Below, piece by piece: positions 1-24,163 of a stretch of 64,000 nucleotides of DNA (within the stretch, counting starts at the first letter, position 1; each line of letters starts with the position of its first letter). The notes under the pieces were generated by a model that worked only from the letters and a program-made list of their open reading frames with translations, searched no databases and was not told the origin of the DNA. The stretch is taken from the NCBI GenBank assembly GCA_038206135.1, contig JBBRBD010000002.1:2896-66895 (forward strand), written 5' to 3'. The DNA comes from Patescibacteria group bacterium. Lineage in GTDB: Bacteria; Patescibacteriota; Microgenomatia; UBA8517. The translations under genes were made by a program, and so were the position numbers.

Positions 1-1633
1 CAGAAGATTTTTGTGAGGCAGGATCTGAAGCAACGTTAGCCGTAACTGTTAAATTGTCCATAACAAGAGAGTCTTGAAAAGCCACAGAATAATTTTGAGT
101 ATATTTGAATGTGAATGGAGCTGCGGTAGTAATACTACCATCTGTCGGAGCTGTTGGTATAGCAGGAGCGACTGGTGGACAGGTGCCACCACCATCTTTC
201 AAAACTTGGCAGTCATATTTAAACGTCACATTTGTTAGCGTTTCTTTCTTTGCAGTAATGGTGATTGTATATTCAACAGAAAATGGCAAGTCACTGTTTT
301 TAAATGGTCCAGGAGGATTTGCCGTTTTTGTAACCTTAATATATGGATTATCTTGTGCAGAAGCTCCTGTTGAACCTGGTTGAGTACCTGTCGTTGTTAA
401 TGCAGATCCTGGTGGAACTACATAACCGCTTGCATTAATAATAAACATAATAAACGCAATAATAGGAACTAGTATTATTGAAATTGCGGCTGTCGCAGTA
501 GCTCCAACTACTAATCCTGGACCGATTGCAGATCCTACTATAACTGCTAATCCGCCAAGGGCAGCTCCCGCAGTTTTAAGTGTATCTTTAGTTTTTTTGA
601 AACTTCCCAATATAGCTTTTTGAATAAGCGGTCCGACAACTCTACTTATTAATTCCTCGGCAAGCATTCCAACTCCAGGTGCAACTGTATTCAATCCAAC
701 AGCCAGTGCTGCTTTAACAGCCCATTTACTAGCTTGTTTTGCCGCTAACTTTGTAATTGCACCACCAGCTTTTGAAGCTAGGTATCCACTCGGGTCTCTG
801 AAAAACTGCGCACCGTTGGTTCCTCTCATAAGAACTCCGAGAGCTGGCACTTTTTCACTTAGTTCACCGAGTTTCCCAGTGAGTTTAGATTGTACCTCGG
901 CACCAATAGTGCTTCCTTTCGCGAGAGATGCCGCAGAGATGAGTGTACTCTCTAGGCTATATAATTCTCCCTGACTGTTACTTGTTCGAGTTGCCCAACT
1001 ATTATCTTGTAACTGATTCTCAAAATAAGTTATAGTGGCTTCTCTTCGTGCATCTCGAAGTTCTTTCTCTGATGGCCCTAAAGCTGCAATTTTTGCAGCA
1101 TCCATGTTGTACTGCATTTCCAAAGCCTTTTTGTCTTTGATTTTTTTTTCAAGTTCGATACGTCTTTCAGCTTGCTTTTGTGCGATTGTTTTTTCCTTTA
1201 TTTCCTCAGTTGAGAGTTCGTCTATTGTCCCTGTTGAAAACCAGGCTGCTTCCAAGATATCGTCTTCATTTTTTCCATCAAGTAGTCCGTACTTATCTTT
1301 GTTTTTAAGTAATTCGATTGTTGAAGTCGCAACAGCACCTTGTGTATGGGCAGTATTCTTTTGTGTTGATGAACTGGCTCTTCGAGCAGACATTTTCTCA
1401 AGTCCTTGCATTGCAATTGAATATCGGTAGCTACTGCCTGGGTTTCTTAGTTCTTGAATATCTCCAGCACTGAATACTTGTTGCGCATGATTGTAAATAT
1501 CGTCATACGCCTTTTCTATATATTCCTTTGTGCCACCAGTCTGATTTTCTGGATGAAGTCGAGCTTCTGTTCCTGCTGCTGCAACAGCTTCTCTGAGATG
1601 TCGACCTAAAACTGATTCCTGTGAATCTGCCAT
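1..1633 (-). CDS. Large membrane-associated protein, partial. Only the N-terminal ~544 aa are in the window. It has a coiled-coil/charged N-terminal half (MADSQESVLGRHLREAVAAAG...), then Gly/Ala-rich TM segments, then an extracytoplasmic region. It lies directly downstream of VirB4, so it is probably part of the T4SS-like locus.
   Basis: Manual minus-strand translation from the ATG at 1631-1633 stays open to the window edge. The supplied ORF track does not list it because it has no stop inside the window. The start lies 3 nt after the virB4 stop (1637-1639). Confidence 0.5.
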   Translation of the reverse strand, partial: MADSQESVLGRHLREAVAAAGTEARLHPENQTGGTKEYIEKAYDDIYNHAQQVFSAGDIQELRNPGSSYRYSIAMQGLEKMSARRASSSTQKNTAHTQGAVATSTIELLKNKDKYGLLDGKNEDDILEAAWFSTGTIDELSTEEIKEKTIAQKQAERRIELEKKIKDKKALEMQYNMDAAKIAALGPSEKELRDARREATITYFENQLQDNSWATRTSNSQGELYSLESTLISAASLAKGSTIGAEVQSKLTGKLGELSEKVPALGVLMRGTNGAQFFRDPSGYLASKAGGAITKLAAKQASKWAVKAALAVGLNTVAPGVGMLAEELISRVVGPLIQKAILGSFKKTKDTLKTAGAALGGLAVIVGSAIGPGLVVGATATAAISIILVPIIAFIMFIINASGYVVPPGSALTTTGTQPGSTGASAQDNPYIKVTKTANPPGPFKNSDLPFSVEYTITITAKKETLTNVTFKYDCQVLKDGGGTCPPVAPAIPTAPTDGSITTAAPFTFKYTQNYSVAFQDSLVMDNLTVTANVASDPASQKSS

Positions 1634-1636
1634 ATG

Positions 1637-3589
1637 TTATTTCATTTGCCCCGCAATAGCTGCAACTGCCGCAGGTGCTGTTGACTGATCAGCTGTAAGA
1701 ATTGTTTTGTTTTTGGTATCCATCAAGTCTTGTGGTTTTGTGGTTACAAATTCATATTCTTCAGGCGAGGCAACAACTCTAATTGGTGCGTGATGAGGGC
1801 CTGCAAACAATATTCCTTCTCCCACTCCTGCTGCAAGAAGGAGCTGCTTTTCCCCTTGAGACAAATAAAATGTTTCCGTAATGCGATCGATTGCGGCAGG
1901 GGATTGCTTAAGTAAAAGCCGCATTGCGGAGTTTGTCACAACAGCTTTTCCAATATCTTGTGAAAGGAAGTCTTCTACGTCTTGAGTTATTGTCGTTAAA
2001 CCTAAATAATATTTACGTGCGCGTTTTACAATCGACCACAAGAATGCTGCAGTATCTTCATACCTCATCATGTGCCACGCCTCATCAACAACGAGAAGTC
2101 TTTTTTTAATATCACGGCGTACTTTTGTCCAAATAAAATCAAGAATAATAAACATAGCAATAGGGCGCAATGTATCTTGAATGTCTCGCACTGAAAAAGT
2201 TGTAAACGGGTTTTCTATATTGATGTTTGTCTGTTGATCAAAAATTCCAACATAGCTACCTTTTACATATTTCTCAATTCTTGAAGCCAAATCAATTGCT
2301 TCTGTTGTTTCCATACCGATTAATGCTTTATATAAGTCTTCTATTAACGGTGGCTCTTTATCTTGAGTTTCAGGGTCCATCGTAATTCCTTTTGCTTTGT
2401 ATGCATTAATAAGTGCACGATCGAGGAGTGCTTCCTGGCTCGCATTTAATTCTCCCATTATGACTTTAAAAAGTGAGTGAAGGGTTAGAATTTTTAATCC
2501 AAGTTGGTTTTCACCTTTTTCGTAAATTTGAGACAAATCAAACGGGTTGATTTTCGATGGAGAGCTAAAACTAAATGCAATATATTCACCACCAACTGCT
2601 TCTGTTATTGCTCGATATTCGTTTTCAGGGTCGATAACAATAATTTCTGCACCCATCATAAGAGAGCGGAGAGATTCCAGTTTTACAAAGAAAGATTTCC
2701 CTGCACCGGAAGTTGCAAAAACGGTGAGGTTTGAATTCTCCAAGCTAAAGCGGTCAAAAATAATAAAGGAATCATTTTGTGCATTAATTCCGTACAAAAT
2801 TCCAGTGTCGCTCGAAAGTTCGGCAGTGGTAAATGGAAAAGTAGTCGCAAGAGATGTTGTATCCATGTTTCTTGTTATGGTCAGCACATCTCTCCCAAAT
2901 GGGGCTGATGATAGAAATCCTTTTTGATGATCGAGTGTTGCATGTTTTGAAACAATAAGTACCGAGCCCAATGTTGATTCAACACGCTTCGTAATGCTAT
3001 TTAGCTCTTCTTCGTTTGCAGCTGGAATTGTTATGTAAAAACTGTACTGATAAAAACGCTCAATTCCTTTTATGAGCTGCTCTTGTAAAACCTTTGCATC
3101 CTCAAGTTTTGCTTCTGTTCCAGGATTTACAATTTTTCCACGCTGGATATCAGTCGACATTTCGGCTTCCATTTCAGTAATTTTGCGACGCAATTCATCA
3201 AGAACAGTGCGTCCTTCGACCGGGTATATATAAAACGATATATCGAGACTATGGTCAAAATTAATAACTGGCTCTAGCCAACCAGGCACTACAAACCGTG
3301 GATAACCAGCCACAAACAGAGTTCTAAAATAAACTTGTCCAATTCGAATGCTATCAAAATTTACTTCAATGTCCTGTGGAGCTACAACGTCAGCAATAGT
3401 TAGTGTTTTGTCTTTTTTTAATGCCTCTACCGGGTCACCAAATTTCGGTCGATCGACCTGTTGTTCCATCGTTTTTGTTTGTATGTCAGAAGTATCGACA
3501 ATCGCAGGAGTACTTACTGGATTAACAGTCTGTTTAATTTGATCTGAGGCTACTGGTGTTGGCGCTTGGTTTGGTTGTGTTGGATTCAT
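1637..3589 (-). CDS. virB4: VirB4/TrbE/CagE-family type IV secretion ATPase
   Basis: 650 aa. Walker A motif ATSGAGKSFFVK. Walker B motif RLLVVDEAWHMM. Overall length and layout fit VirB4-like ATPases. Confidence 0.85.
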   Translation of the reverse strand: MNPTQPNQAPTPVASDQIKQTVNPVSTPAIVDTSDIQTKTMEQQVDRPKFGDPVEALKKDKTLTIADVVAPQDIEVNFDSIRIGQVYFRTLFVAGYPRFVVPGWLEPVINFDHSLDISFYIYPVEGRTVLDELRRKITEMEAEMSTDIQRGKIVNPGTEAKLEDAKVLQEQLIKGIERFYQYSFYITIPAANEEELNSITKRVESTLGSVLIVSKHATLDHQKGFLSSAPFGRDVLTITRNMDTTSLATTFPFTTAELSSDTGILYGINAQNDSFIIFDRFSLENSNLTVFATSGAGKSFFVKLESLRSLMMGAEIIVIDPENEYRAITEAVGGEYIAFSFSSPSKINPFDLSQIYEKGENQLGLKILTLHSLFKVIMGELNASQEALLDRALINAYKAKGITMDPETQDKEPPLIEDLYKALIGMETTEAIDLASRIEKYVKGSYVGIFDQQTNINIENPFTTFSVRDIQDTLRPIAMFIILDFIWTKVRRDIKKRLLVVDEAWHMMRYEDTAAFLWSIVKRARKYYLGLTTITQDVEDFLSQDIGKAVVTNSAMRLLLKQSPAAIDRITETFYLSQGEKQLLLAAGVGEGILFAGPHHAPIRVVASPEEYEFVTTKPQDLMDTKNKTILTADQSTAPAAVAAIAGQMK

Positions 3590-3590
3590 A

Positions 3591-4283
3591 TTATTCTTCT
3601 TTTGTTTCTGGTAATTCTTTTACAGAGTCTACGCTTGGGTTATAAATATCGTAGAACAAGTGTATCAATTCTTCGCGATTTAATTGTGTGGCTCTTAAAC
3701 CAAGGCGTGCACATTGCTTAATTAAATGGTCACGTTTTGGATACAAAACTGTTTTTACTTTTTTCAAAATGTAATCTTCGGTATAGGGTAGTGGTCCACC
3801 CTTTTTCATACCTGGAATAAGACCTTTGCTAAAGCCGAGTTCAAGCGGAGAGAAGGGAATAATCAAAAAGAACCGTTTTCCTAAAACATTTCGTTTTCGA
3901 ATAGTCTCGGAAATAAATGTTTTGTAATTTAACATGAGTTCTTTTAACTTGGGATTCTTCATCGCATTTATTTTCTCGTCCAAATACGATAAATAACTCC
4001 CAATATCTTTTCGTTGAGTGCGTACACTAATTTCAGTGGCAAACGATAAACTGTTAATCATCGCAGCGAATGCCGCAATTACTGCTTCTTGTTCACGTTC
4101 TGACAATAGTCCAAAGTTAAGCGACGAAGTTTCCAATACAATTGCAGCCCCTCCATCTTTGTACATGACGATGTCATCTAAAACATCTGCTATAGGAACA
4201 GCTTCTTGTGTTGCTTTTACAATAGGAGTATCAGGTGTGTTTAAAAGAGGTACTTTTGCAAACAGAGTATCAATTATTGCCAT
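3591..4283 (-). CDS. Hypothetical soluble protein (230 aa) immediately upstream of VirB4 with a 2-nt gap. It may correspond to the separately encoded N-terminal domain of VirB4.
   Basis: Tight operon coupling to the VirB4 gene. VirB4 here is about 150-200 aa shorter than typical ~800-aa VirB4 proteins. No recognisable motifs. Confidence 0.4.
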   Translation of the reverse strand: MAIIDTLFAKVPLLNTPDTPIVKATQEAVPIADVLDDIVMYKDGGAAIVLETSSLNFGLLSEREQEAVIAAFAAMINSLSFATEISVRTQRKDIGSYLSYLDEKINAMKNPKLKELMLNYKTFISETIRKRNVLGKRFFLIIPFSPLELGFSKGLIPGMKKGGPLPYTEDYILKKVKTVLYPKRDHLIKQCARLGLRATQLNREELIHLFYDIYNPSVDSVKELPETKEE

Positions 4284-4285
4284 AT

Positions 4286-5383
4286 TTATGCATTAGCCTT
4301 AACTGCCATTGGTGAAATTATCGCCCCGTGTATTTCAAAAGAAAGGGGTGAAAAAGTGAGACCTTCTTTTTCCACATTCATTTGATATGATCCATTTGGA
4401 AGGGGAGTTACTATCATGAAATGGCCCGCTTTGTTTGTTTTGAGAGCTCGAACAGGGCGACCTTGAAAGTCTTTAATTTCCAAAATAGCTCCTTCTACAA
4501 TTTTATTTTGAGCTGTCATTACCTGTCCCACAATTACATTTGGAATTGTAGCAGGTGAAGGGGGAGCTGCATCTGGTGAAAATTGTACGGCAACTGCAGA
4601 TTCTTCAGTTTGAGGATGAAGCGTCTGTTCTATTGGTGCAAGTGTTCCGGTTGCAGACCCTGACTGTTTTACCTCTGTTTGAGCAAATCCTGAGTGTTGT
4701 TGCATTGTAATTGCTGGAGTTGCAGGTGTAGCAACAAAAAGAGTCCCTGCTATTGGTGTAGGAGGTGTATATGCAACAACTGCTGCTGGCTTTGAAGCGT
4801 TTTGAAGTATTTCAGACTGAATAGTAGTAGACACATTCAGTGGTAATGATGTTTCTGGAACTAAAACATTGTTCCCTGGGATTTGGACAACAGGAACTGC
4901 TGTATTTGGTTGTGTAACTGAGGTTGTAGTTTTTTGATGCAAACTAAACATATCAGATATGTTTGCGAGAAAATTATTTTCTTTCGTTTCCATTTTTGTA
5001 ACTGATGCATCTGTTATTTTTGTTTGTCCTGGAATGGTGCTGGGAATCGCGGTTGTTGGAGCGATATTTGCACTCGCAAAATATGAGACATTACTGTCTT
5101 TTTTCCATCGATATTGTGTCGGGCCATAGACTGCTCTGAAAAACGCAGAAATCCATTCCTCTAGTGGACGTTCTTGAAGTGGTAAAAATGCAAAAGCAGC
5201 TCCTGCTACTACAAACAATACAATGAGTGGCCACTTAAAAATCGAAGGAAGGGGAGTGGCATACATAATAAGACCTAATACGGCACCCGCCGCAAGTTGA
5301 AAAAATTGCTTTAAAGTCATGTCACCTACCAATCGAAACTGGTATGAGCTTATTTGTTGAGGAACCGGATGTTGTTCAAACAT
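4286..5383 (-). CDS. Membrane protein with two N-terminal TM helices (VirB3/PrgI-like position), a Thr/Pro/Ala-rich linker, and a C-terminal carboxypeptidase-regulatory-like beta-sandwich domain
   Basis: N-terminal hydrophobic helices (LAAGAVLGLIMYATPLP ; WPLIVLFVVAGAAFAFLPL). C-terminal block VVGQVMTAQNKIVEGAILEIKDFQGRPVRALKTNKAGHFMIVTPLPNGSYQMNVEKEGLTF matches the CarboxypepD_reg/Cna-B-like G-V-D-G-P-GA-V pattern. Position immediately upstream of the virB4 genes. Confidence 0.5.
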   Translation of the reverse strand: MFEQHPVPQQISSYQFRLVGDMTLKQFFQLAAGAVLGLIMYATPLPSIFKWPLIVLFVVAGAAFAFLPLQERPLEEWISAFFRAVYGPTQYRWKKDSNVSYFASANIAPTTAIPSTIPGQTKITDASVTKMETKENNFLANISDMFSLHQKTTTSVTQPNTAVPVVQIPGNNVLVPETSLPLNVSTTIQSEILQNASKPAAVVAYTPPTPIAGTLFVATPATPAITMQQHSGFAQTEVKQSGSATGTLAPIEQTLHPQTEESAVAVQFSPDAAPPSPATIPNVIVGQVMTAQNKIVEGAILEIKDFQGRPVRALKTNKAGHFMIVTPLPNGSYQMNVEKEGLTFSPLSFEIHGAIISPMAVKANA

Positions 5384-5680
5384 TTTTAAAAATCTAATAG
5401 TCTACCACCTTCATCATCTCTTGTGTGAAGCCAATATTCAAGGAGCATACCTTTTCACGGTATAATATTAAATTGAAACATTTTGTCGCTTATAATTAAG
5501 AGTTACAAAAACTTGAAAAAGGTTTGTGGAAAGTATCTAAAGATTTCCTAAACTGCAGGAATCTTATTGAGGTTTAATATAATGAGAAAATAGTACTTGT
5601 TCTACGACACAAATACAAGATTTTTTCTTTATAAAATAAATCACCTCGGCAAGATGCCGAGGTGTTCTTGTAATTACCCT
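5384..5680 (-). promoter_or_regulatory. AT-rich ~300 bp intergenic region, a likely promoter for the VirB3-like/VirB4 operon (minus strand)
   Basis: Long non-coding AT-rich gap between co-directional genes. Contains TATAAT-like and TTGAAA-like hexamers. Not mapped precisely. Confidence 0.25.
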
Positions 5681-6625
5681 TTATGAGCAATTATATTCAG
5701 TTGTTTGTCCACTTTGGACGGTATGGATGGATTCCAATTTGACAACCTTTGTCGAGCTAAAGTCTTTCGACATTCCAGGGTCAATTCTCACACTTCTACC
5801 ATCAACATTCCACCAAACAATTACATTAAAGTCGGCGTTGCTTACCCAATTTTCTACATTGTCGAGCCAAACTTTGTTTTCCGACTTGTGCATGATTCCC
5901 ATCACTGTTGTACACAAATCCGTCTCGTTCACACTCTTACTTGTGGGTATCACTGTCAACGATATCTCAGGCGCATCATTAGTGACATCAAGTGCCTTTT
6001 GAATCGTGAGTACGTTTCCTGCGCTACTGTTGATGCTATTGATTATGTCTTGAGGTCCTTTAATTACAGGTGCAAATACCGCTTGTAATACAAGAATGAT
6101 TGCAACAACAATGGCGATGATAATCCCTGCAATTGCGGTAGTTCGCTTTTTGTTCTGTCCGTTTCTAAGGAAATACACCAACCAGACTATTGCAATTGGG
6201 ATGAAAGCAAACAGAAGTGTAGTACCAAGTGATCCGCCGAATCCAAATAGGATAGAGGCAATACAGTATATTGGCCCAAGTACTAAAAGAATTAGGCATG
6301 TAACCCATTTCTTCGCAAACTCTAAAATTCTGCCATTTGACGGGGTTTGTGTTTCTTCTGTTGCCGATACTTGAACTTCATCAGTTTGATCATTTGTCAC
6401 AATCTGTTCTGCTTCATCAAAAATTGAATTATCTTCACTGTCAGATGGAGCAGTCCATTCGTTATATGCTTTTCTCATCGTGTCAGAGGAAAGCACTCTG
6501 TACGCTTCTTGTACCTCATCATTTTTATCTGTCGCGGCGTTGTAAAGCGCCTCAATTTGAATTTTCGTGGCATTTCTATCTGCCCCTAGAACCTGATAAT
6601 AATCTTTGCTTGGATCAAAGTTCAC
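5681..6625 (-). CDS. Membrane protein with a degenerate J-domain-like N-terminus (no HPD), about three TM helices and a C-terminal extracytoplasmic domain
   Basis: N-terminus KDYYQVLGADRNATKIQIEALYNAATDKND-EVQEAYRVLSSDTMRKAYNEW aligns to J-domain helices I-III (DYYEILGV...EAYEVLSD..KR..YD). The HPD loop is replaced by a shortened TDKN loop. Hydrophobic segments at about residues 108-175. Confidence 0.45.
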   Translation of the reverse strand: MNFDPSKDYYQVLGADRNATKIQIEALYNAATDKNDEVQEAYRVLSSDTMRKAYNEWTAPSDSEDNSIFDEAEQIVTNDQTDEVQVSATEETQTPSNGRILEFAKKWVTCLILLVLGPIYCIASILFGFGGSLGTTLLFAFIPIAIVWLVYFLRNGQNKKRTTAIAGIIIAIVVAIILVLQAVFAPVIKGPQDIINSINSSAGNVLTIQKALDVTNDAPEISLTVIPTSKSVNETDLCTTVMGIMHKSENKVWLDNVENWVSNADFNVIVWWNVDGRSVRIDPGMSKDFSSTKVVKLESIHTVQSGQTTEYNCS

Positions 6626-6757
6626 GCTCAGTCTCCTCTTCGAGATATATAATGTACTTGAGAATTATAACACTATAAGTCTATTTCTGCAATTCCTGAC
6701 ACTAATTAAACAGGCACAAAAAAAGTCGATTCTTTTGGATATGAATCGACTTTTGTT

Positions 6758-7312
6758 TTAGTAGGAACAAATTGGTCTACTTAAGAGACTTGTTGAAATC
6801 CACTCATTTTGTCCAATTGATGCCCAGTCACCCGTTGTGTCAGTACCGAAATAGATGAGATTCGTCTGGTTTTGAACGTTACCTACAACGTCGGAATTGG
6901 ATGCAGGTCCGTTTCTAATCCGAGCAGTTTTATTATCAGATACAGTGACCACGACAGTGCAAACTTTTGGTGGAGAAGGTGTATCTGTTTCAAAAACAGG
7001 GATTGGTGTCAGTGTAATTGTCGCTGGAATTTCAGTTTTCGGAATATTGGTCGGTGAAATTGGATTTTTTGTAATTGTTGCCGTTGGAGTAATTATTTGA
7101 TGGATAGTTACCTCGTTTGACCTTAAAAATGCATATGTTGTACCAATTACAAGACCAATTGTTAGTAAAAAGCTGCCTACGATCAAAATTGTTGATCCAA
7201 TACAACCTAGTTGTCGACTTTCTACTTCCTTTTGAATGACATGGTGCCCTGTCTCATCCACATTCTCAAATATGTCATTTTCAGATATTTCAATTAAGCT
7301 TTCCTTTTCCAT
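6758..7312 (-). CDS. Single-pass membrane protein with a C-terminal bacterial SH3 (SH3b)-like domain
   Basis: One TM helix (ILIVGSFLLTIGLVIGTTYAFL). C-terminal TARIRNGPASNSDVVGNVQNQTNLIYFGTDTTGDWASIGQNEWISTSLL resembles the SH3_3 pattern (vRsGPs..s.vig.l..g..v........gdWaki...GWi.s.yL). Confidence 0.45.
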   Translation of the reverse strand: MEKESLIEISENDIFENVDETGHHVIQKEVESRQLGCIGSTILIVGSFLLTIGLVIGTTYAFLRSNEVTIHQIITPTATITKNPISPTNIPKTEIPATITLTPIPVFETDTPSPPKVCTVVVTVSDNKTARIRNGPASNSDVVGNVQNQTNLIYFGTDTTGDWASIGQNEWISTSLLSRPICSY

Positions 7313-8372: not shown

Positions 8373-8389
8373 AACAAGGAGAAGATTCA

Positions 8390-8899: not shown

Positions 8900-8906
8900 A
8901 AAGGAC

Positions 8907-10743: not shown

Positions 10744-10744
10744 A

Positions 10745-10948: not shown

Positions 10949-10960
10949 GACATTTTCGTA

Positions 10961-10992
10961 GGGGTGAGGATAATTCCTCACCCTTTTTTGTT
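10961..10992 (+). terminator. Rho-independent terminator closing the E2-JAB-E1-small-protein operon
   Basis: GGGGTGAGGA taat TCCTCACCC followed by TTTTTTGTT. Confidence 0.6.
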
Positions 10993-11053
10993 GCAAACAA
11001 CCCATAATTATGTTAAAATGCTGAACTCCTGGAAAATAGTAGCATAAAGTTAT

Positions 11054-13406: not shown

Positions 13407-15074
13407 TTATAAACCTTGCTTTTTAGATTGTCCAGATGGCTTGATTTGTTGATTTAGAGCACCTGTTGTATTCTGAGCCTGTCTCAATGTGTCTTCTGTT
13501 CGCTTAGCAGCTTTAGCTTGTTGCCACTCTTCTTGTCTTCTTGATCCAAAAGTTTGGACCCTTCCAAGAACATTGTTAGTTAATTCTTTTCGCACATCTT
13601 TAATTTGTCCTCCTATTGCACCTCCCACAATGCCAGCGCCGAGCATTGTTCCGAATGTGTCAGCTCCATAGCTTCCTCTACCTGAAGCAATTTGATCTCT
13701 CACTCCAGAGGCGATTTTGGGTGCTGAAAAGATGATTCCGAAACCAATAAAGAAGGCAAGAATTTGAATAGGGAAACCTCCAAAACCTGGAAGTAAAATT
13801 GCACTTCCGTTTACTTGGTTTGTTGCAAAGTTGAAGTAGTTTGCACCTCCTGTTAGGATATCTCCGAGCCATCCATTTAAATCAATTGTCATTGTCCAAA
13901 ACACCATGTGTGCTAAGAGCATTGTTAAACAAATAGCTACAAATACAGATAATTGTGCAACCATTTGTCGAATCCAACCACCGATCCCTGGCCCAATTGA
14001 AACCACACCCAGAAGGCCAATAATTGGGGCTCCAATCACCAAAAAGACAATCATAGTGAAAGCTTTAAGCATAGTTACAAATATTCTAAAAATTGCTACT
14101 AGCCCGAGTCCTAGTAGAATTACACCGATAAGTCCGGCTACTGCTCCAACAATTGTTGCGAGTCCACCAGTTGCAATTGTTCCAATTACAGCAGTAGCTC
14201 CTGCTCCAAAGATAAATCCACCTAAAATTATGGTCCAGCCAGTAAATGCTGCAATTGGGTTGTTTAGTTTATTAAAGATGTCAATAACATTTGGAGCACC
14301 ACCTTTAAATAGCCCGCTTTGTGCGACTATTGCAGAGGAAAGTCCCATTACGACATATGCCAAATCTATAATAAGTCCTGCTATTGCATATGAAAAAGTA
14401 ATAAAGATAAGGGCAATTGCAACTTTGGGAAGTGCAGACTGTACACTTACGACTACTTGAGGAGCTATCTTTTGCCTTAACATAATCATAAATGCAAGAA
14501 TAATGATCACAAATGACATGAGTCCAAAAGCAACATTCCTAAATGCTACCCACAATCTTTGGAGTGGTTGAAGTGCTCCGAAACCAGTTCCTTCTTGAGC
14601 ATAAGCATCCTGTACTGGAGAATATTGCCTTATTTTCTGAGCAACATAGTCAATACCAGACGCTGGCTTATGAGATAAAAACGAGTCGGCAGCTCCCGCT
14701 AAAAACAAAACTGGACTACTCAATGGTGCTTCTGCCTGAATGTTTGAAACACATTGTGAAGTATTTGCCCCTGCACTAAAACACTGAGACATTGATCCAG
14801 CCTGAAGTAGCGCAAGGGAATTGACTATCCAATTGACTTGAGCGAACGTATATCTCTCACCAAAAATATCTGTATCATTTGCGCTTCCTGGAGGGAATAC
14901 TTTTGAATTGAATGTGTTTAAATCTGGGTTCCACCATTGGGTAGCATTTCCTGCTGGGGCAGTTTGTGCATGAACATTTGAGATGGGATAGGCCACTGAA
15001 ACAATCACCAATAGAAGTGTTGTAATAGCCAATAATTTATTTTTCATATTTGTAAAAACTTCTATCTTAAACAT
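13407..15074 (-). CDS. VirB6/TrbL-like polytopic membrane protein with N-terminal signal peptide and hydrophilic C-terminal tail
   Basis: 555 aa. Signal-like N-terminus (KNKLLAITTLLLVIVSVAYPISNVHAQ). At least 6 Gly/Ala/Ile-rich TM helices. Charged C-terminus. Sits next to the pilin gene. Confidence 0.5.
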   Translation of the reverse strand: MFKIEVFTNMKNKLLAITTLLLVIVSVAYPISNVHAQTAPAGNATQWWNPDLNTFNSKVFPPGSANDTDIFGERYTFAQVNWIVNSLALLQAGSMSQCFSAGANTSQCVSNIQAEAPLSSPVLFLAGAADSFLSHKPASGIDYVAQKIRQYSPVQDAYAQEGTGFGALQPLQRLWVAFRNVAFGLMSFVIIILAFMIMLRQKIAPQVVVSVQSALPKVAIALIFITFSYAIAGLIIDLAYVVMGLSSAIVAQSGLFKGGAPNVIDIFNKLNNPIAAFTGWTIILGGFIFGAGATAVIGTIATGGLATIVGAVAGLIGVILLGLGLVAIFRIFVTMLKAFTMIVFLVIGAPIIGLLGVVSIGPGIGGWIRQMVAQLSVFVAICLTMLLAHMVFWTMTIDLNGWLGDILTGGANYFNFATNQVNGSAILLPGFGGFPIQILAFFIGFGIIFSAPKIASGVRDQIASGRGSYGADTFGTMLGAGIVGGAIGGQIKDVRKELTNNVLGRVQTFGSRRQEEWQQAKAAKRTEDTLRQAQNTTGALNQQIKPSGQSKKQGL

Positions 15075-15112
15075 ACATGAACTGAACTAAATCACGCAAG
15101 GACGAAACAGAA

Positions 15113-15427
15113 TTATTTTTGATATATCGTAAAGGTTAAAATCGAGTTTATTCCAATAAATCTAGCAATAATAACAAGCAGTAAGAATGACAATGCTAGA
15201 ACAACAATTCCAATTACTGCATATGTTGCCATGTTTCGTGCGGCTTCCGCTCTTTTAGGGTCACTTCCTGCCATAATAAGGTTAACGCCAGCCAAAAGCA
15301 AAATAATAAAGGCTACAATTCCCGCAAGCGGAATAGCTGCGCGCAAAACATTTGCAAATATATCTTCAAATTCTGAAAGAGTGTTTGGGGTACTAGTTAC
15401 AAGTTGTGCAAAAACTAAAGAGAACAT
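15113..15427 (-). CDS. TrbC/VirB2-family T4SS pilin-like protein
   Basis: 104 aa. Leader then two hydrophobic helices separated by AGSDPKRAEAARNMATY. Same architecture as the tandem pilin paralogs at 20.3-22.6 kb. Confidence 0.6.
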   Translation of the reverse strand: MFSLVFAQLVTSTPNTLSEFEDIFANVLRAAIPLAGIVAFIILLLAGVNLIMAGSDPKRAEAARNMATYAVIGIVVLALSFLLLVIIARFIGINSILTFTIYQK

Positions 15428-15436
15428 AATTATATG

Positions 15437-16912: not shown

Positions 16913-16951
16913 TTTTGTGATTTCTATTAAATGTAATCATTCATTATTGTA

Positions 16952-18136: not shown

Positions 18137-18138
18137 TT

Positions 18139-20303: not shown

Positions 20304-20645
20304 TTATGTGCCGGTTACGCTTGCAATTGAGAAATTCAAGATCGATACACCAAACACTGTTTGTACTAACTGTGCAATAGCCCATGCTGAGAATATAATT
20401 ACAAGACCAATAAGAGCTGCTGTAATTTGTCCTCGAGCGGCTTCTGTTTGAGCTTTATCTCCACCGGAGAGTACCCAACGGAGACCTCCGACGATAAGCA
20501 TAAAGAAGAAAATAAGTCCTGCAACGGCAACTATTAGTGTAATTGCCCAACTAACTAGATCACCCAATTGAAAACCAGTCGGATTTCCAACTCCACTAGG
20601 ACTTAAGTTGAATGATTGTGCGAACACTGTAGATAATAAATTCAT
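20304..20645 (-). CDS. TrbC/VirB2-family pilin-like protein (paralog 1)
   Basis: 113 aa. Leader, helix, SGGDKAQTEAARGQITAALIG, helix. Same two-helix pilin topology as the other paralogs. Confidence 0.6.
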   Translation of the reverse strand: MNLLSTVFAQSFNLSPSGVGNPTGFQLGDLVSWAITLIVAVAGLIFFFMLIVGGLRWVLSGGDKAQTEAARGQITAALIGLVIIFSAWAIAQLVQTVFGVSILNFSIASVTGT

Positions 20646-20788
20646 GTCATTTCGTCACCTCCTTAAAAGATTTTGTAAAAATCGTATATAATAACACGAT
20701 TCTTTTTTTAATGTCAAACTATACACACATGCTGATAGTTCATATATATTTATCGCGTATTTGGCAGGTAAAAGTCAAGAGGATAGTA

Positions 20789-21130
20789 TTAAGTGGCAGG
20801 TTGCATAAGCGGCGCTAGATTTATATTCAAAAGACTGATTCCAAAGACTGCCTCAACTAGTTTTGCAATTGCCCAAACACTAACCATAACTACCAGCCCT
20901 GTAATTGCTTGTGTTATTTGTGCTCGTGCATTTTCTATTTGAGCTTTATCTCCACCAGATGTAATCCATCTGATACCACCAATTAAAAGCATAAAAAAGA
21001 AGGCAAGGCCTCCAATCATAAACAAGAGCGTAATCATTTTTGGAATGAAGTCTCCAAAAAATGTGGCACCGTCTCCAGTCAGTTTAGGTGTTGCGAGGTT
21101 TGTAATCTGTGCGAAAACTGTTGAGTACAT
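20789..21130 (-). CDS. TrbC/VirB2-family pilin-like protein (paralog 2)
   Basis: 113 aa. TSGGDKAQIENARAQITQAITG loop between two hydrophobic helices. Confidence 0.6.
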   Translation of the reverse strand: MYSTVFAQITNLATPKLTGDGATFFGDFIPKMITLLFMIGGLAFFFMLLIGGIRWITSGGDKAQIENARAQITQAITGLVVMVSVWAIAKLVEAVFGISLLNINLAPLMQPAT

Positions 21131-21135
21131 GATAT

Positions 21136-21504
21136 TTATGGTGTCAGAGTTTTTATTGCTGCAGCAAGATTCAAAATATCAAAACCAAGTATCTGGCCGA
21201 CCAAACTCACGATAAAGACGCTAATCACAACAATTACAAGTCCAATTAGTCCGTTAGAGATGCGTTTTTTAGCCGTTTCTACAGCTCCTTTATCTCCACC
21301 CGCAGTAATCCATCCAATTGCGCCTATGAAAAGCGTAAAAATAAACCAGATTCCAGCAACAACAGTCATTACAGCAATGATTGTTGAGATAAGCTTTTCA
21401 AAATTTGCTGCGGGATCTCCACCAGTTGCAAAAATTCCAGTTCCAGGTCCGGAGAAGCCACCCGTAGTTGGTGCAAAATCTAATGTGCCTGCAAGTCTAT
21501 TCAT
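21136..21504 (-). CDS. TrbC/VirB2-family pilin-like protein (paralog 3)
   Basis: 122 aa. TAGGDKGAVETAKKRISNGLIG loop. 5-nt gap to neighbours. Confidence 0.6.
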   Translation of the reverse strand: MNRLAGTLDFAPTTGGFSGPGTGIFATGGDPAANFEKLISTIIAVMTVVAGIWFIFTLFIGAIGWITAGGDKGAVETAKKRISNGLIGLVIVVISVFIVSLVGQILGFDILNLAAAIKTLTP

Positions 21505-21505
21505 A

Positions 21506-21838
21506 TTAAAATGTTAAAGTAGGGTGTAAAAGCGCATCTGCTTTTCCATAAACAAGTAACCCAATTACACCGGCGATCAGGAATGCTCCAACTAAAAATA
21601 CAAGGCCTATGATTGTTTGATATATTTTTGCCCACGCCGATTCCATCCCTTTAGGATTATCACCAGCTGCTAAGAATGCGTAACCTGCCAAGATAAAATT
21701 AAGAAGTGCCCAGATCCCTCCAGCAACAATAAGAACATTAAAAATAAGTTGCAATATGTTTCCAAGCGCAGTTGCTGGGTTACTTCCCCAAACTGCAGTA
21801 GCAGGGGGTTGGTGAATTGTTCCAAAAGGATCAGTCAT
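21506..21838 (-). CDS. TrbC/VirB2-family pilin-like protein (paralog 4)
   Basis: 110 aa. AAGDNPKGMESAWAKIYQTIIG loop between hydrophobic helices. Confidence 0.55.
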   Translation of the reverse strand: MTDPFGTIHQPPATAVWGSNPATALGNILQLIFNVLIVAGGIWALLNFILAGYAFLAAGDNPKGMESAWAKIYQTIIGLVFLVGAFLIAGVIGLLVYGKADALLHPTLTF

Positions 21839-21880
21839 ATAAGTTAAATAATAATAGCAAATAAAAGCTTCAATTGAAAA

Positions 21881-22237
21881 CTACGGACAAGGATTGGTAG
21901 GTGTTCCACAAGAACTTACATTTGGTCCTGTAATAAAATTGACACCAGTAATAGACTCCACAATTCTTATTATAAAAAATGAAGCTAGAACAACAATGAA
22001 CCCAATAACCGCCCAAGTTATCGCTTGGTGACCTTGTGCTGAAGCTTTTGGGTCATTGTTCCCAGCACCCATTATTACTTGTAAACCTCCACCTACAAGA
22101 AGGAATACTACAATGACACCAGCAACAACTAATGATCCGCTCAAAATAATCGAAACTAGATCGCCGATGCTTTTTGTCTGTCCAAACGGTGTATTTAGTT
22201 CTTTTCCAATATCTACGGCTGCAAAAATATTAGTCAT
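21881..22237 (-). CDS. TrbC/VirB2-family pilin-like protein (paralog 5)
   Basis: 118 aa. MGAGNNDPKASAQGHQAITWAVIG loop. C-terminus contains Cys (…SSCGTPTNPCP). Confidence 0.55.
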   Translation of the reverse strand: MTNIFAAVDIGKELNTPFGQTKSIGDLVSIILSGSLVVAGVIVVFLLVGGGLQVIMGAGNNDPKASAQGHQAITWAVIGFIVVLASFFIIRIVESITGVNFITGPNVSSCGTPTNPCP

Positions 22238-22243
22238 AAATGT

Positions 22244-22624
22244 TTATACAAATGTGCTTGTGATCCCCGGCAAGTTAAATATAGCGCCAATAATTTGAAT
22301 TATGATATAAGCCGTGAGCATGAGCAACAAACCAAGAAAGCCATTCTTAATTCTTTCTTGTCCTGCCTTAACTTTAGCAGGATCACCAGCCGCCGTCATA
22401 AGACTGATCCCTGCAAGCACCAAGTTGATAATGAGTGCAATACCTCCTAAATAAAACAAAAGCCCGACTATTCCATATGGGTAATTGTTGATCAAATTTG
22501 AGAGGTTTGCGTTTCTTAGCAAATAACTGTTGCCTGGTGTCTGATTAATTGACTTTTCAAGATCATCCAAACAACCTGCATTAAAAGTACCAGCAGGGCA
22601 TGCTGCTAAAATTATTGAATACAT
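22244..22624 (-). CDS. TrbC/VirB2-family pilin-like protein (paralog 6)
   Basis: 126 aa. TAAGDPAKVKAGQERIKNGFLG loop. N-terminal region has two Cys residues. Confidence 0.55.
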   Translation of the reverse strand: MYSIILAACPAGTFNAGCLDDLEKSINQTPGNSYLLRNANLSNLINNYPYGIVGLLFYLGGIALIINLVLAGISLMTAAGDPAKVKAGQERIKNGFLGLLLMLTAYIIIQIIGAIFNLPGITSTFV

Positions 22625-22639
22625 AAATTATTGTAACAT

Positions 22640-24157
22640 CTAAAAAAGCCCGAGTACATTAACTCCAATTATTCGTAAAATAAAGACAGCAAATGCAAGC
22701 ATTACAAGGCCAGAGAATGCAGAGATTAAAAGTTCTTTTCCCATTTGGAGTTTCGAGACATCTCCACTGCTTGTAATAATTTGGAATGCTGCGGCAATAA
22801 GAACAAGAATTACGAGTCCACCACCAATGCCCAAACCCCATGTTATGAAAAAAGCTTCAAAATTGGTAATAGTCTCAATTGGCACACAACCGATTGCGGT
22901 ATCCACACCTATGATTCCTGCCTTGTTACAATATCCAGCGAAAGCGGCGATGGCAGAGGGTGGTGCAACTTGATTGCATGCCGTTAGGGTAGGACAGCAA
23001 TAGTCAATACTTGTTCCCGTATTAGGAACTGATCGAGAGCAATATACACCACTTGCTTTTGCACAATCAGCGCGACTAATTCCTCCGGGGATACAGGTAT
23101 TCAGAGGCACGCTGCAAATTGAGCCTCTACAACTCCCAGACATACATTCTGAATCAGTTGTACAAGTCCCGGCGAGGGGAATTCTGTTTTCTTTACATTT
23201 ACAAACACCACTACTTGCTTCTATATCAATATCACCCTGTAAACAACTAAATGAGTTGTTTTGTGAGCTATAACAACAATAGCCTCCAATTGAGCCACAA
23301 CCATTGTTATTGGGGATTACACAACTGCCTATCATTGATTGATTAAAGTTTGAACCTGAAGCGTCTACTGGATTAATCCAACAACCATTACATTGACTTT
23401 TGGTGGTACTTCCTTGGCAAGTGATACTCACCACTCCTGCACATTGTCCTCCTCGATTTCCACAATTAAAGTTTCCTGTTTGAACTTGCTTTGTACAAAC
23501 TCCAGGAGCTACAGCTCCGCTTGCGGGAGATGTTGTACACCAATAATTGTCACCACCTACGCATGTAAACCCATTCAGGGCATCACATTGGTCGTTTGTA
23601 ACACATGAAGTTCCATCTCCTCCTTGGCCAGGTATTGCCCCCGGGAGACACTTGCTTCCGATACAAGTAAGACCTTGTTTGCAAGGGTTTGTCCCGGAAC
23701 ATGCCTCGCAAGTATCTGGAAGAGCCGGAGGTTGTGATGAAACAGTTACAGATCCGCTGCAAAGATCTGTTTGTGAGCCCAACAATCCTGCTTGTCTAAA
23801 AACAAGCGTGTTAGCACCATCTACAAAAAGGGGATTACCATCGTTATCGTTCAAAACGGTAAAAGTCCCTCCTGTGTCTGAAATTTGATTCCCAACATCA
23901 ATCCATTTTCCCGTTGAAGGAGAATATATATTGAATGTCGAGTTGGATTTTGATATCCCGCCAAATCCACCCGAGATTTGCATTTCAATATTGTTTCCTG
24001 GTTGAACAGTTGCTGTTAAAACAATCAAATCACAGCTTGCAGCACTGACAGTATTAGGCTTAATACCTGATAAGCATAAGAATAGTGCGCTTATGAGGAA
24101 CAGCAATAAGAATCTCTTCGAATTTTGTAATAACAATTTTCCTTGGTGGAAATTCAT
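22640..24157 (-). CDS. Secreted Cys-rich protein (about 400-aa extracellular domain with more than 40 Cys in CxxC/EGF-like spacing) fused to a C-terminal TrbC/VirB2 pilin domain
   Basis: 505 aa. Signal peptide (KRFLLLFLISALFLCLSGIKPNTVSA). Long Cys/Gly/Thr-rich region. C-terminus FFITWGLGIGGGLVILVLIAAAFQIITSSGDVSKLQMGKELLISAFSGLVMLAFAVFILRIIG is the pilin two-helix module. Confidence 0.6.
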   Translation of the reverse strand: MNFHQGKLLLQNSKRFLLLFLISALFLCLSGIKPNTVSAASCDLIVLTATVQPGNNIEMQISGGFGGISKSNSTFNIYSPSTGKWIDVGNQISDTGGTFTVLNDNDGNPLFVDGANTLVFRQAGLLGSQTDLCSGSVTVSSQPPALPDTCEACSGTNPCKQGLTCIGSKCLPGAIPGQGGDGTSCVTNDQCDALNGFTCVGGDNYWCTTSPASGAVAPGVCTKQVQTGNFNCGNRGGQCAGVVSITCQGSTTKSQCNGCWINPVDASGSNFNQSMIGSCVIPNNNGCGSIGGYCCYSSQNNSFSCLQGDIDIEASSGVCKCKENRIPLAGTCTTDSECMSGSCRGSICSVPLNTCIPGGISRADCAKASGVYCSRSVPNTGTSIDYCCPTLTACNQVAPPSAIAAFAGYCNKAGIIGVDTAIGCVPIETITNFEAFFITWGLGIGGGLVILVLIAAAFQIITSSGDVSKLQMGKELLISAFSGLVMLAFAVFILRIIGVNVLGLF

Positions 24158-24163
24158 ATGTGT

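What the first reader, a model, noticed from the sequence alone, without database searches (positions are those of the whole stretch)
1..7312. Type IV secretion-like core with VirB4, VirB3-like fusion and possible split VirB4, but no coupling protein or relaxase in view
A VirB4 ATPase (Walker A/B present) is preceded by a 230-aa soluble protein with a 2-nt gap. That protein may be a separately encoded VirB4 N-terminal domain. Before it sits a 2-TM protein fused to a Thr/Pro-rich linker and a carboxypeptidase-regulatory-like beta-sandwich. Together with the VirB6-like protein, the pilins and the SpoIID hydrolase downstream, this forms a minimal T4SS. No VirD4, relaxase or oriT appears in 64 kb. 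Such a system is more likely to mediate DNA uptake, effector delivery or cell-cell attachment than conjugation.
Basis: partly seen in the sequence, partly recalled or inferred. Interest (0 to 1): 0.6.

Follow-up and report, generated by a model that had tools for sequence, protein, structure and literature searches.

The report
Patescibacterial type IV secretion cluster, split VirB4
This is the chromosomal type IV secretion gene cluster typical of ultra-small Patescibacteria (here a Woesebacteria relative), whose motor ATPase VirB4 really is encoded in two pieces, but this layout and its lack of conjugation genes were already published in 2023-2025.

Summary
On the minus strand, four tightly packed genes form an operon:
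- a PrgI/VirB3-like 2-TM protein with a C-terminal beta-sandwich (4286-5383);
- a 230-aa protein (3591-4283);
- a VirB4 ATPase (1637-3589);
- a membrane protein cut by the window edge (1-1633).

The 230-aa protein is a separately encoded N-terminal sub-domain of VirB4 (TrsD / "TraC-like" family). The evidence:
- It matches the N-terminal part of full-length VirB4 profiles.
- A natural 787-aa fusion exists and covers the whole CD1110 VirB4 model.
- Its predicted fold hits only R388 TrwK/VirB4 at the top.
- The window's VirB4 lacks exactly that part of the model.

No coupling protein or relaxase occurs in the 64 kb. In relatives the cluster ends at dnaN-dnaA.

All of this matches the Patescibacteria T4SS already described (Wang 2023; Quiñonero-Coronel 2025): TrsD next to virB4, PrgI, VirB2-like pilin arrays, origin proximity, no relaxase.

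Small lineage-specific additions:
- the enlarged VirB3;
- a swappable cell-wall hydrolase slot after virB4;
- a weak VirB6 candidate (13407-15074).

Function is inferred as pilus and host interaction rather than conjugation. It has not been shown.

The parts
1..1633 (-). 5' part (544 of 751 codons) of the gene immediately after virB4. It encodes a cytoplasmic N-terminal region, a TM cluster at residues ~352-399, and an extracellular C-terminal region. This is the probable cell-wall-hydrolase (VirB1-analogue) slot.
   Evidence: The frame is open to the window edge. The full-length protein is P0271, 751 aa, 100% identical, with an HESGH motif at residue 656 beyond the window. Genes in the same position in relatives carry Peptidase_M23 (L004, L010, L016, L023), Amidase_2 (L005) or an N-terminal J domain (L015, P0284). 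This protein itself has no Pfam or NCBIfam hit.
1637..3589 (-). VirB4-type ATPase, 650 aa, lacking the first N-terminal sub-domain. Walker A lies at 2693-2716 and Walker B at 2075-2098.
   Evidence: NCBIfam conju_CD1110 gives E 7e-114 and 381.6 bits (cutoff 325), covering model positions 178-751 of 752. Pfam P-loop_TraG gives 6e-31. PDB 4ag5 VirB4 C-terminal domain gives 4e-47 and TrwK gives 9e-6. Motifs were located.
3591..4283 (-). TrsD/'TraC-like' protein, 230 aa: a separately encoded N-terminal sub-domain of VirB4.
   Evidence: It hits NCBIfam VirB4_plasma model positions 107-215 and the TrsD family. All 35 aligned homologues hit both of those, and 13 hit CD1110. The precomputed Pfam assignment is PF26593 TraC-like. 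Natural fusion P0152 matches it at 45% identity and the window VirB4 at 64% identity. P0152 covers CD1110 model positions 3-735. The AF2 model has its top 14 Foldseek PDB hits all on TrwK/VirB4.
4286..5383 (-). Enlarged VirB3 homologue, 365 aa. It has a PrgI domain with two TM helices (5132-5368), a variable T/A/P/S-rich linker (about 4574-5086) and a conserved C-terminal beta-sandwich (about 4358-4534).
   Evidence: Pfam PrgI scores 29.7 bits (threshold 27). CarboxypepD_reg scores 24 bits (threshold 32.3). Both ends are conserved and the linker is variable across 17 related loci. The same architecture occurs in L003.
5642..5664 (-). Terminator-like hairpin (10-bp stem, 7 G-C pairs, T-rich tail) after the J-like gene. 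It separates that gene from the PrgI-TrsD-VirB4 operon.
   Evidence: This is a pattern match only.
5681..6625 (-). Membrane protein, 314 aa, with a degenerate J-like N-terminal domain lacking the HPD motif and about 4 TM helices. It is a lineage-restricted accessory gene.
   Evidence: Pfam DnaJ scores 26.3 bits, below the threshold of 27.8. The sequence lacks HPD. Homologues occur only in the closest relatives L002 and L003.
6758..7312 (-). Single-TM protein, 184 aa, with a T/P-rich linker and a C-terminal SH3_3-like domain. Its membership of the system is uncertain.
   Evidence: Pfam SH3_3 scores 26.5 bits, just below the threshold of 27. No homologue was found in related loci at 1e-5.
13407..15074 (-). 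Polytopic membrane protein, 555 aa: a candidate VirB6 analogue.
   Evidence: It has 7 or more hydrophobic helices. It is conserved next to a pilin gene and upstream of PrgI-TrsD-VirB4 in about 18 loci. The AF2 model has pLDDT 74. Its top Foldseek PDB hits are R388 stalk (VirB5/VirB6) chains at prob 0.95-1.0, but with weak E-values of 0.015-0.09 and TM 0.40-0.43. It has no Pfam, NCBIfam or PDB sequence hit.
15113..15427 (-). VirB2-like T4SS pilin (PF18895), 104 aa.
   Evidence: One search gives E 1e-8 and 35.4 bits (threshold 26.6). It is conserved beside the 555-aa protein in relatives.
20304..25087 (-). Array of six short VirB2-like pilins plus two Cys-rich secreted proteins (505 and 307 aa) that end in a pilin domain.
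   Evidence: The two large proteins score below threshold, at 22-23 bits. Pairwise identity is about 20-54%, matching the published description of such arrays (PMC12102498).
25168..26865 (+). SpoIID-domain protein, 565 aa, a putative peptidoglycan-remodelling enzyme, divergent from the pilin array.
   Evidence: Pfam SpoIID gives 4e-16. Association with the T4SS rests on position only.

Best explanation
This is the chromosomal, origin-proximal type IV secretion system characteristic of Patescibacteria, in a Woesebacteria (Microgenomatia) genome. It descends from the monoderm MPF-FATA conjugation machinery.

The motor ATPase VirB4 is encoded as two polypeptides:
- a 230-aa TrsD-like protein, which is the first N-terminal sub-domain;
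- a 650-aa protein carrying the rest of the N-terminal domain plus the RecA-like motor.

Shown here:
- gene order;
- homology;
- the natural fusion;
- fold similarity;
- tight coupling of the ORFs.

Inferred from the R388 structure, where the VirB4 N-terminal domain contacts VirB3 and the membrane:
- The two-TM PrgI/VirB3 protein binds the TrsD piece.
- The TrsD piece docks the VirB4 hexamer at the membrane beside a VirB6-like polytopic protein.
- The ATPase then drives extraction and polymerisation of the VirB2-like pilins, and possibly protein transfer.
- The membrane-anchored protein encoded after virB4 opens the cell wall.

No coupling ATPase or relaxase accompanies the cluster. It therefore most likely serves pilus-dependent interaction with a host cell (protein or other substrate exchange) rather than plasmid conjugation. 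This is the published proposal for Saccharibacteria, where the system is essential for epibiotic growth.
For: Identity of the system:
- VirB4 exceeds the CD1110 equivalog cutoff.
- The PrgI domain is above its gathering score.
- Nine PF18895 pilin domains are present.
- The closest homologues are all Patescibacteria/Woesebacteria.
- Synteny pilin / 555-aa membrane protein / PrgI / TrsD / VirB4 / hydrolase-slot gene is conserved in about 18 loci.
- dnaN-dnaA lies 2-8 kb downstream of virB4 in 14 loci.

Split VirB4:
- The window VirB4 covers CD1110 model positions 178-751 only.
- The 230-aa protein and all 35 aligned homologues hit the N-terminal part of the VirB4_plasma model and the TrsD family.
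- Fusion protein P0152 (787 aa) has 6 cluster members from NCBI, ENA and JGI. It aligns to both window proteins and covers CD1110 positions 3-735 in one stretch.
- Foldseek's top 14 PDB hits are all TrwK/VirB4, best E 2.9e-4, prob 1.0.
- The family is large and mostly stand-alone: 1593 hits and 2727 representatives.
- Gaps between the genes are 1-3 nt.

Absence of conjugation genes:
- No VirD4 or relaxase family was found.
- Only VirB4 and an ABC ATPase carry Walker A motifs.
- No extra plausible ATPase lies within 10 kb of virB4 in relatives.

Literature:
- TrsD is the commonest component next to virB4, relaxases are rare, pilin arrays occur, and the cluster sits near the origin (PMC12102498).
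- The system is essential, and coupling protein and relaxase are absent, in S. epibionticum (PMC10633639).
- The VirB4 N-terminal domain contacts VirB3 (PMC12857230).
Against: - Only 64 kb of the genome is visible. T4CP homologues in Patescibacteria usually lie far from virB4 (5,713 in 2,918 genomes, PMC12102498), so a coupling protein elsewhere cannot be excluded.
- The fold match of the 230-aa protein is moderate: model pLDDT 73, TM 0.44, and the aligned target coordinates were not reported.
- VirB6 identification is weak (E 0.015-0.09).
- The window's hydrolase-slot protein has no recognised catalytic domain.
- No experiment exists for any Woesebacteria.
- The proposed assembly order and the pilus or secretion role are extrapolated from R388 and from Saccharibacteria Tn-seq.
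Confidence: 0.85

Rival explanations
1. This is a working conjugation (DNA-transfer) system whose coupling protein and relaxase are encoded elsewhere in the genome, as happens in some conjugative elements.
For: - T4CP homologues are common in Patescibacteria genomes but usually far from virB4 (PMC12102498).
- Only 64 kb was examined here.
- The VirB4 belongs to a conjugation-derived family.
Against: - Relaxases were found in only 103 Patescibacteria genomes, and were near virB4 in only 15 cases (PMC12102498).
- The T4CP homologue was not essential in S. epibionticum, whereas the T4SS genes were (PMC12102498, citing PMC10633639).
- The cluster is a fixed chromosomal feature next to dnaA-dnaN across Woesebacteria. 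It is not on a mobile element.
Confidence: 0.07
2. This is a decaying remnant of an integrated conjugative element. The 230-aa/650-aa pair would then be a VirB4 gene broken by a frameshift.
For: - The two ORFs lie in different frames, separated by one nucleotide.
- No relaxase or T4CP is nearby.
Against: - The same split occurs in more than 1,500 homologues of 217-267 aa and in every related locus examined.
- Conservation is strong: 88% and 93% identity to the L002 orthologues.
- Both proteins are intact, with complete motifs.
- The TrsD homologue is essential in S. epibionticum (PMC12102498).
Confidence: 0.02
3. This is a DNA-uptake machine, analogous to the archaeal Ced or Helicobacter ComB systems, importing host DNA as a nucleotide source.
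For: - Weak VirB4-level similarity to CedB (53 bits against a cutoff of 700).
- The organism presumably scavenges nucleotides; NT5C, NDK-like and nucleoside-related genes occur in the window.
- In the ABY1 class the cluster neighbours comF, recG and radA (PMC12102498).
Against: - In S. epibionticum, competence depends on ComEC and type IV pili. A comEC deletion abolished transformation without loss of viability, while the T4SS stayed essential (PMC12857230, summarising PMC10633639).
- The CedB similarity is only generic VirB4 homology.
Confidence: 0.06

Closest known systems
Patescibacteria-clade T4SS (Quiñonero-Coronel et al. 2025, PMC12102498; S. epibionticum SEML1_0006-0019, Wang et al. 2023, PMC10633639)
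   Same: - MPF-FATA-type VirB4 with a TrsD homologue immediately upstream.
- PrgI/VirB3 adjacent.
- Array of divergent VirB2-like pilins, at most about 54% identical.
- Chromosomal position next to dnaA/dnaN.
- No relaxase or T4CP nearby.
- Peptidoglycan-hydrolase-type gene right after virB4.
   Different: - The Woesebacteria PrgI is three times the usual VirB3 size and carries a conserved C-terminal beta-sandwich, which those papers do not mention.
- The post-virB4 gene swaps catalytic modules between relatives: M23, Amidase_2, an HExxH-motif domain, with or without a J domain.
- A ubiquitin-like E2/JAB/E1 island is inserted inside the cluster in this genome only.
- VirB6 was reported as scarce in Microgenomatia, and a weak candidate is proposed here.
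pGO1/pSK41-type staphylococcal conjugation system (TrsC-TrsD-TrsE; MPF-FATA subclass)
   Same: A VirB3-like gene, a stand-alone TrsD-family protein of about 200 aa, and a VirB4 (TrsE) missing that N-terminal part. The 230-aa protein and all 35 relatives hit NCBIfam TrsD/TraD.
   Different: - pGO1 is a plasmid with a relaxase and coupling protein, it has no VirB2 pilins, and it conjugates.
- The TrsD scores here (24 bits; best E-value among the relatives 6e-10) are far below the family cutoff of 200, so this is a distant relative and not a member of that subfamily.
Full-length VirB4 of the CD1110 family and R388 TrwK (PDB 7O41, 8RTB)
   Same: - The two window proteins together correspond to a full-length CD1110-type VirB4; fused relative P0152 covers model positions 3-735 of 752.
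- The predicted fold of the 230-aa piece matches TrwK.
- The C-terminal motor domain matches 4ag5.
   Different: Here the polypeptide is divided after about 200 residues. Sequence identity to TrwK is only about 11-16%.

Membership tests
Patescibacteria-clade T4SS (MPF-FATA-derived) | VirB4 ATPase of MPF-FATA type | tested here: met
   conju_CD1110 scores 381.6 bits against a cutoff of 325. Walker A and B are intact. Placement in the Patescibacteria clade by phylogeny was not done; the nearest relatives are all Patescibacteria.
Patescibacteria-clade T4SS (MPF-FATA-derived) | TrsD homologue encoded next to virB4 | tested here: met
   The 230-aa ORF lies 1 nt upstream of virB4. It has TrsD and VirB4 N-terminal profile hits and the Pfam TraC-like assignment.
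Patescibacteria-clade T4SS (MPF-FATA-derived) | VirB3/PrgI homologue | tested here: met
   PF12666 scores 29.7 bits against a threshold of 27, with two TM helices.
Patescibacteria-clade T4SS (MPF-FATA-derived) | VirB2-like pilin genes, often in arrays | tested here: met
   Seven PF18895 hits above threshold and two below, at 15113-25087. Identities are 20-54%.
Patescibacteria-clade T4SS (MPF-FATA-derived) | Chromosomal location near dnaA/dnaN (Microgenomatia, Paceibacteria) | tested here: inconclusive
   The window ends inside the gene after virB4. In 14 related loci dnaN-dnaA follow within 2-8 kb. The window holds housekeeping genes (dnaG, rpoD, smpB, tmRNA) and its GC skew rises away from the left edge.
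Patescibacteria-clade T4SS (MPF-FATA-derived) | No relaxase or coupling protein near virB4 | tested here: met
   No such Pfam family was found in about 60 ORFs. Only VirB4 and an ABC ATPase carry Walker A motifs.
VirB4 N-terminal domain (split form, TrsD/TraC-like) | Sequence correspondence to the N-terminal segment of full-length VirB4, with that segment missing from the adjacent VirB4 | tested here: met
   The 230-aa protein matches VirB4_plasma model positions 107-215, while the window VirB4 matches positions 292-875 of that model and 178-751 of CD1110. Fused P0152 covers CD1110 positions 3-735.
VirB4 N-terminal domain (split form, TrsD/TraC-like) | Existence of natural fused orthologues | tested here: met
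   P0152 residues 6-201 match the 230-aa protein (9e-55) and residues 213-768 match VirB4 residues 69-623 at 64% identity. The cluster has 6 members from independent assemblies.
VirB4 N-terminal domain (split form, TrsD/TraC-like) | Fold similarity to a solved VirB4 | tested here: met
   The top 14 Foldseek hits are all TrwK/VirB4, E 2.9e-4 to 2.5e-2, prob 0.94-1.0, TM 0.36-0.44. Model pLDDT is 73. The aligned target residues were not reported.
VirB4 N-terminal domain (split form, TrsD/TraC-like) | Physical binding to VirB3 and to the rest of VirB4 | not testable with these tools
   This needs a complex prediction or biochemistry.
Conjugative T4SS (self-transmissible element) | Relaxase (MOB) and oriT | tested here: not met
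   No relaxase family occurs in the window. oriT was not searched, because no model was available. The rest of the genome was not visible.
Conjugative T4SS (self-transmissible element) | Type IV coupling protein (VirD4/TcpA) | tested here: not met
   There is no second T4SS-type P-loop ATPase in the 64 kb, nor within 10 kb of virB4 in relatives. A distant copy cannot be excluded.
VirB6 | Polytopic membrane protein (at least 4-6 TM) encoded in the cluster with a VirB6 profile or fold | tested here: inconclusive
   The 555-aa protein has 7 or more TM segments and conserved synteny. It has no profile hit. Its Foldseek top hits are R388 stalk chains, but with E only 0.015-0.09.
VirB1-type cell-wall hydrolase | Recognisable peptidoglycan hydrolase domain | tested here: inconclusive
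   P0271, the full-length form of ORF 1-1633, has no Pfam or NCBIfam hit and only an HESGH motif. Positional equivalents in relatives carry M23 or Amidase_2.

The most novel reading that the evidence does not exclude
In Woesebacteria the membrane-docking module of the T4SS has been rebuilt.
- VirB3 carries a conserved extra beta-sandwich. By homology to VirB3 topology this would sit in the cytoplasm.
- The VirB4 N-terminal sub-domain is a free subunit.
- J-domain modules recur on the gene after virB4: a true HPD motif in L015 and P0284, with a weaker J-domain hit in L014.

Together these could form a coupling-protein-independent substrate-recruitment or regulated-assembly platform. Examples would be Hsp70-assisted feeding of unfolded proteins, or reversible docking of the ATPase. 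That would be a new way of loading a T4SS.
Probability: 0.1. Interest if true: 0.6.

Novelty: already known. Interest (0 to 1): 0.22.

Why it matters
Patescibacteria make up a large share of bacterial diversity and live attached to host cells. Their T4SS is essential in the one tractable species, and its substrate is unknown.

This window adds nothing fundamental to that picture, but it is a clean Woesebacteria example. It offers:
- direct evidence (natural fusion, profile coverage, fold) for the previously 'remote' TrsD = VirB4 N-terminus link;
- a candidate for the VirB6 reported as missing in Microgenomatia;
- evidence that the gene after virB4 is a cassette-like cell-wall-hydrolase slot.

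These points are useful for annotation and for designing structural work. They are not a discovery in themselves.

Tried and rejected
- **PDB sequence searches.** Searches with the 230-aa protein and with its 35-sequence profile found nothing meaningful. The same was true for the 555-aa profile.
- **Local Pfam copy.** It gave no domain for the 230-aa protein. The TraC-like assignment came only from precomputed annotations.
- **Sequence beyond the window edge.** The only contig read for the 230-aa protein ends inside virB4. Exact look-ups of VirB4 and of P0271 were not on record. The left flank was therefore inferred from relatives.
- **Frameshift pseudogene.** Rejected, because the split is conserved in more than 1,500 homologues.
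- **Functional J domain.** I considered that the upstream 'DnaJ' protein is a functional J-domain partner. Its HPD motif is absent, so it is only J-like.
- **SH3 and J-like genes as core components.** Not supported, because they occur only in the closest relatives.
- **Promoter scan.** Not above the shuffled expectation.

Full report
**What is in the region**

Six minus-strand ORFs, five of them complete, fill 1-7312:

| Coordinates | Size | Description |
|---|---|---|
| 6758-7312 | 184 aa | single-TM protein with an SH3_3-like end |
| 5681-6625 | 314 aa | membrane protein with a J-like start |
| 4286-5383 | 365 aa | PrgI-family protein |
| 3591-4283 | 230 aa | protein with no convincing TM segment (one marginal hydrophobic stretch) |
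| 1637-3589 | 650 aa | VirB4 |
| 1-1633 | >544 aa | open frame running off the window |

- The last four genes are separated by 2, 1 and 3 nucleotides.
- A strong terminator-like hairpin at 5642-5664 precedes them.
- PrgI / 230-aa / VirB4 / downstream gene therefore look like one operon.
The 230-aa / VirB4 junction is TAA-T-ATG.

**Identity of the genes**

VirB4:
- It passes the NCBIfam equivalog cutoff for the CD1110 family (381.6 bits against 325), but matches only model positions 178-751 of 752.
- Pfam gives P-loop_TraG.
- The PDB VirB4 C-terminal domain 4ag5 aligns to residues 282-616 at 4e-47.
- Walker A (ATSGAGKS, 292-299) and Walker B (LLVVDEAW, 498-505) are intact.

The 365-aa protein:
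- It has a PrgI domain above threshold and two TM helices.
- It has a T/A/P/S-rich linker.
- It has a sub-threshold CarboxypepD_reg-like beta-sandwich. Across 17 related loci this region is as conserved as the PrgI part, while the linker is not.
- VirB3 proteins are normally 10-15 kDa with short cytoplasmic ends (PMC12857230), so this is an enlarged VirB3.
- By homology its C-terminus, and therefore the beta-sandwich, should be cytoplasmic. This is an inference, not a test.

**Is the 230-aa protein a detached VirB4 N-terminal domain?**

Yes, on five independent lines:
1. It hits positions 107-215 of the 894-position VirB4_plasma model and the TrsD/TraD family. All 35 aligned homologues do the same, and 13 also hit CD1110.
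2. The public precomputed annotation is Pfam PF26593 'TraC-like'.
3. A profile search of 1.84 billion representatives returned a 787-aa protein, P0152.
   - Its residues 6-201 match the 230-aa protein (45% identity, 9e-55).
   - Its residues 213-768 match window VirB4 residues 69-623 (64% identity).
   - It covers CD1110 positions 3-735 in one stretch.
   - Its cluster has six members from NCBI, ENA and JGI assemblies, so the fusion is not an assembly error.
4. The AlphaFold2 model (pLDDT 73) has TrwK/VirB4 chains of the R388 T4SS as its top 14 Foldseek PDB hits, best E 2.9e-4, prob 1.0, TM 0.44.
5. The split is conserved.
   - There are 1593 homologues, with the 120 listed being 217-267 aa.
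   - There are 2727 representatives.
   - Every related locus has the same pair.

One nuance: the 650-aa protein still has about 230 residues of N-terminal domain before the motor. The split removes only the first sub-domain.

**Wider cluster**

- The window is chromosomal: dnaG, rpoD, smpB, tmRNA, tRNAs and an archaeal-type SAM synthetase are present.
- The nearest relatives are Candidatus Woesebacteria MAGs.
- A second block at 13407-25087 holds a 555-aa polytopic protein, nine PF18895 pilin domains and other membrane proteins. A SpoIID-domain gene follows at 25168-26865.
- In about 18 related loci the order pilin(s) / 555-aa protein / one opposite-strand gene / PrgI / TrsD / VirB4 / downstream gene is conserved. 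The two blocks are therefore one system.
- In this genome the system is interrupted by an extra E2/JAB/E1 island at 7542-10948.
- The 555-aa protein has no profile hit. Its model (pLDDT 74) hits R388 stalk (VirB5/VirB6) chains first, though weakly (E 0.015-0.09). The chain lengths of 261-272 residues fit VirB6 rather than VirB5, which is my inference. I treat it as a VirB6 candidate only.

**The gene at 1-1633**

- Its full-length form is P0271, 751 aa: a cytoplasmic N-terminal region, a TM cluster, and an extracellular C-terminal region carrying an HESGH motif.
- The gene in the same position in relatives ends in Peptidase_M23 (L004, L010, L016, L023) or Amidase_2 (L005).
- L015 and P0284 carry an N-terminal J domain with a true HPD motif; the L014 protein also hits the J-domain profile (E 2e-9), but its motif was not inspected.
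- This is the cell-wall-hydrolase (VirB1-analogue) slot with interchangeable catalytic modules.
- For the window's own protein no catalytic domain was recognised.

**Coupling protein and relaxase**

- No VirD4, TcpA or relaxase family appeared among about 60 ORFs.
- The only Walker A ORFs in the 64 kb are VirB4 and an ABC ATPase.
- I could not obtain this genome's sequence beyond the window edge.
- In the 87%-identical relative L003, virB4 is followed by three cluster genes and then dnaN, dnaA and rnpA.
- dnaN-dnaA follow virB4 within 2-8 kb in 14 loci, with no other plausible ATPase nearby.

**Comparison with the literature**

- Wang et al. 2023 (PMC10633639) showed that the S. epibionticum T4SS, including its pilin array, is essential for epibiotic growth. 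They found no recognisable coupling protein or relaxase and suggested protein export or another role.
- Quiñonero-Coronel et al. 2025 (PMC12102498) surveyed 2,474 patescibacterial virB4 genes and reported:
  - a distinct clade related to MPF-FATA;
  - PrgI;
  - VirB2 arrays of 2-11 genes, at most 54% identical, abundant in Microgenomatia;
  - proximity to dnaA/dnaN;
  - rare relaxases;
  - T4CP homologues mostly far from virB4.
- A 2025 review repeats these points (PMC12857230).
- Every element of the finding is therefore already published. The window is one more instance.

**Mechanism**

Shown:
- composition;
- order;
- homology;
- the split.

Inferred from R388, where VirB4 N-terminal domains contact VirB3 and the membrane (PMC12857230):
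- PrgI binds the TrsD piece.
- The TrsD piece docks the VirB4 hexamer beside the VirB6-like protein.
- ATP hydrolysis drives pilin extraction and polymerisation, and possibly substrate transfer.
- The downstream enzyme breaches the wall.

A non-conjugative, host-interaction role is likely but unproven. A distant T4CP cannot be excluded from 64 kb.

**Verdict**

Interest is low. The residual value lies in:
- the direct fusion and fold evidence for TrsD = VirB4 N-terminus;
- the enlarged VirB3;
- the modular hydrolase slot;
- the weak VirB6 candidate in Microgenomatia.

Noticed in passing
window 7542-13348 (+): An operon-like block sits inside the T4SS cluster. It encodes a 276-aa 2-TM protein, an E2-CBASS-like protein (169 aa), a JAB protein (360 aa), a ThiF/E1 protein (287 aa, with partial hits to the anti-phage 6A-MBL cap2_3 model), and a 72-aa acidic ORF (10730-10948) ending in ...TRTWG. 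A 764-aa protein of unknown function follows. The E2/JAB/E1 genes are absent from the closest relatives (L002, L003). This suggests a ubiquitin-like conjugation or defence island.
   Followed up: partly
L023 7604-11116 and L022 7424-11110: The VirB4 genes of two Woesebacteria relatives carry an insertion of about 525-600 aa (the exact boundaries were read only in L023). In L023 it lies exactly after the Walker A GAGK, ends in ...FIHN followed by Ser, and contains LAGLIDADG-like motifs. It is a probable intein with a homing endonuclease in the P-loop.
   Followed up: partly
proteins P0159, P0194, P0195, P0237, P0238 (not in window): Many TrsD-like representatives from other Patescibacteria carry 300-500-aa tails rich in Q/N/P/S/T. 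These end in a conserved LPPIAEIT/PPLPEI-type motif whose meaning is unknown.
   Followed up: no
L015 11907-14777, L014 6959-9292, P0284; window 5681-6625: A J domain is fused to the cytoplasmic N-terminus of the protein encoded after virB4 in some Woesebacteria, with a true HPD motif in L015 and P0284 and a profile hit in L014. The window instead has a separate upstream membrane protein whose J-like domain lacks HPD. This is a recurrent but unexplained J-domain link to the T4SS.
   Followed up: partly
window 33549-33636 (+): ARAGORN calls a tRNA-Ser with anticodon ACT, one of five tRNA-Ser genes clustered at 32518-37907. An unmodified A34 Ser tRNA is unusual in bacteria.
   Followed up: no
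window 54274-55328 (+): An insertion-sequence transposase is split into an HTH_23 ORF and an overlapping DDE_3 ORF, probably read through by programmed frameshift. A Fic-domain protein lies nearby at 59988-61220.
   Followed up: no
window 22640-25087 (-): Two secreted, very Cys-rich proteins (505 and 307 aa) end in a VirB2-like pilin domain and are 51% identical to each other there. They could be pilus-displayed adhesin or tip subunits.
   Followed up: no
window 15437-19605: Two polytopic proteins of about 490 aa (no family hit), a PMT_2-type glycosyltransferase (16952-18136) and an ICMT-family methyltransferase (19599-20237) are interleaved with the pilin genes. The 491-aa protein is conserved beside the pilin in L002 and L004. 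This may indicate pilin or envelope modification.
   Followed up: no
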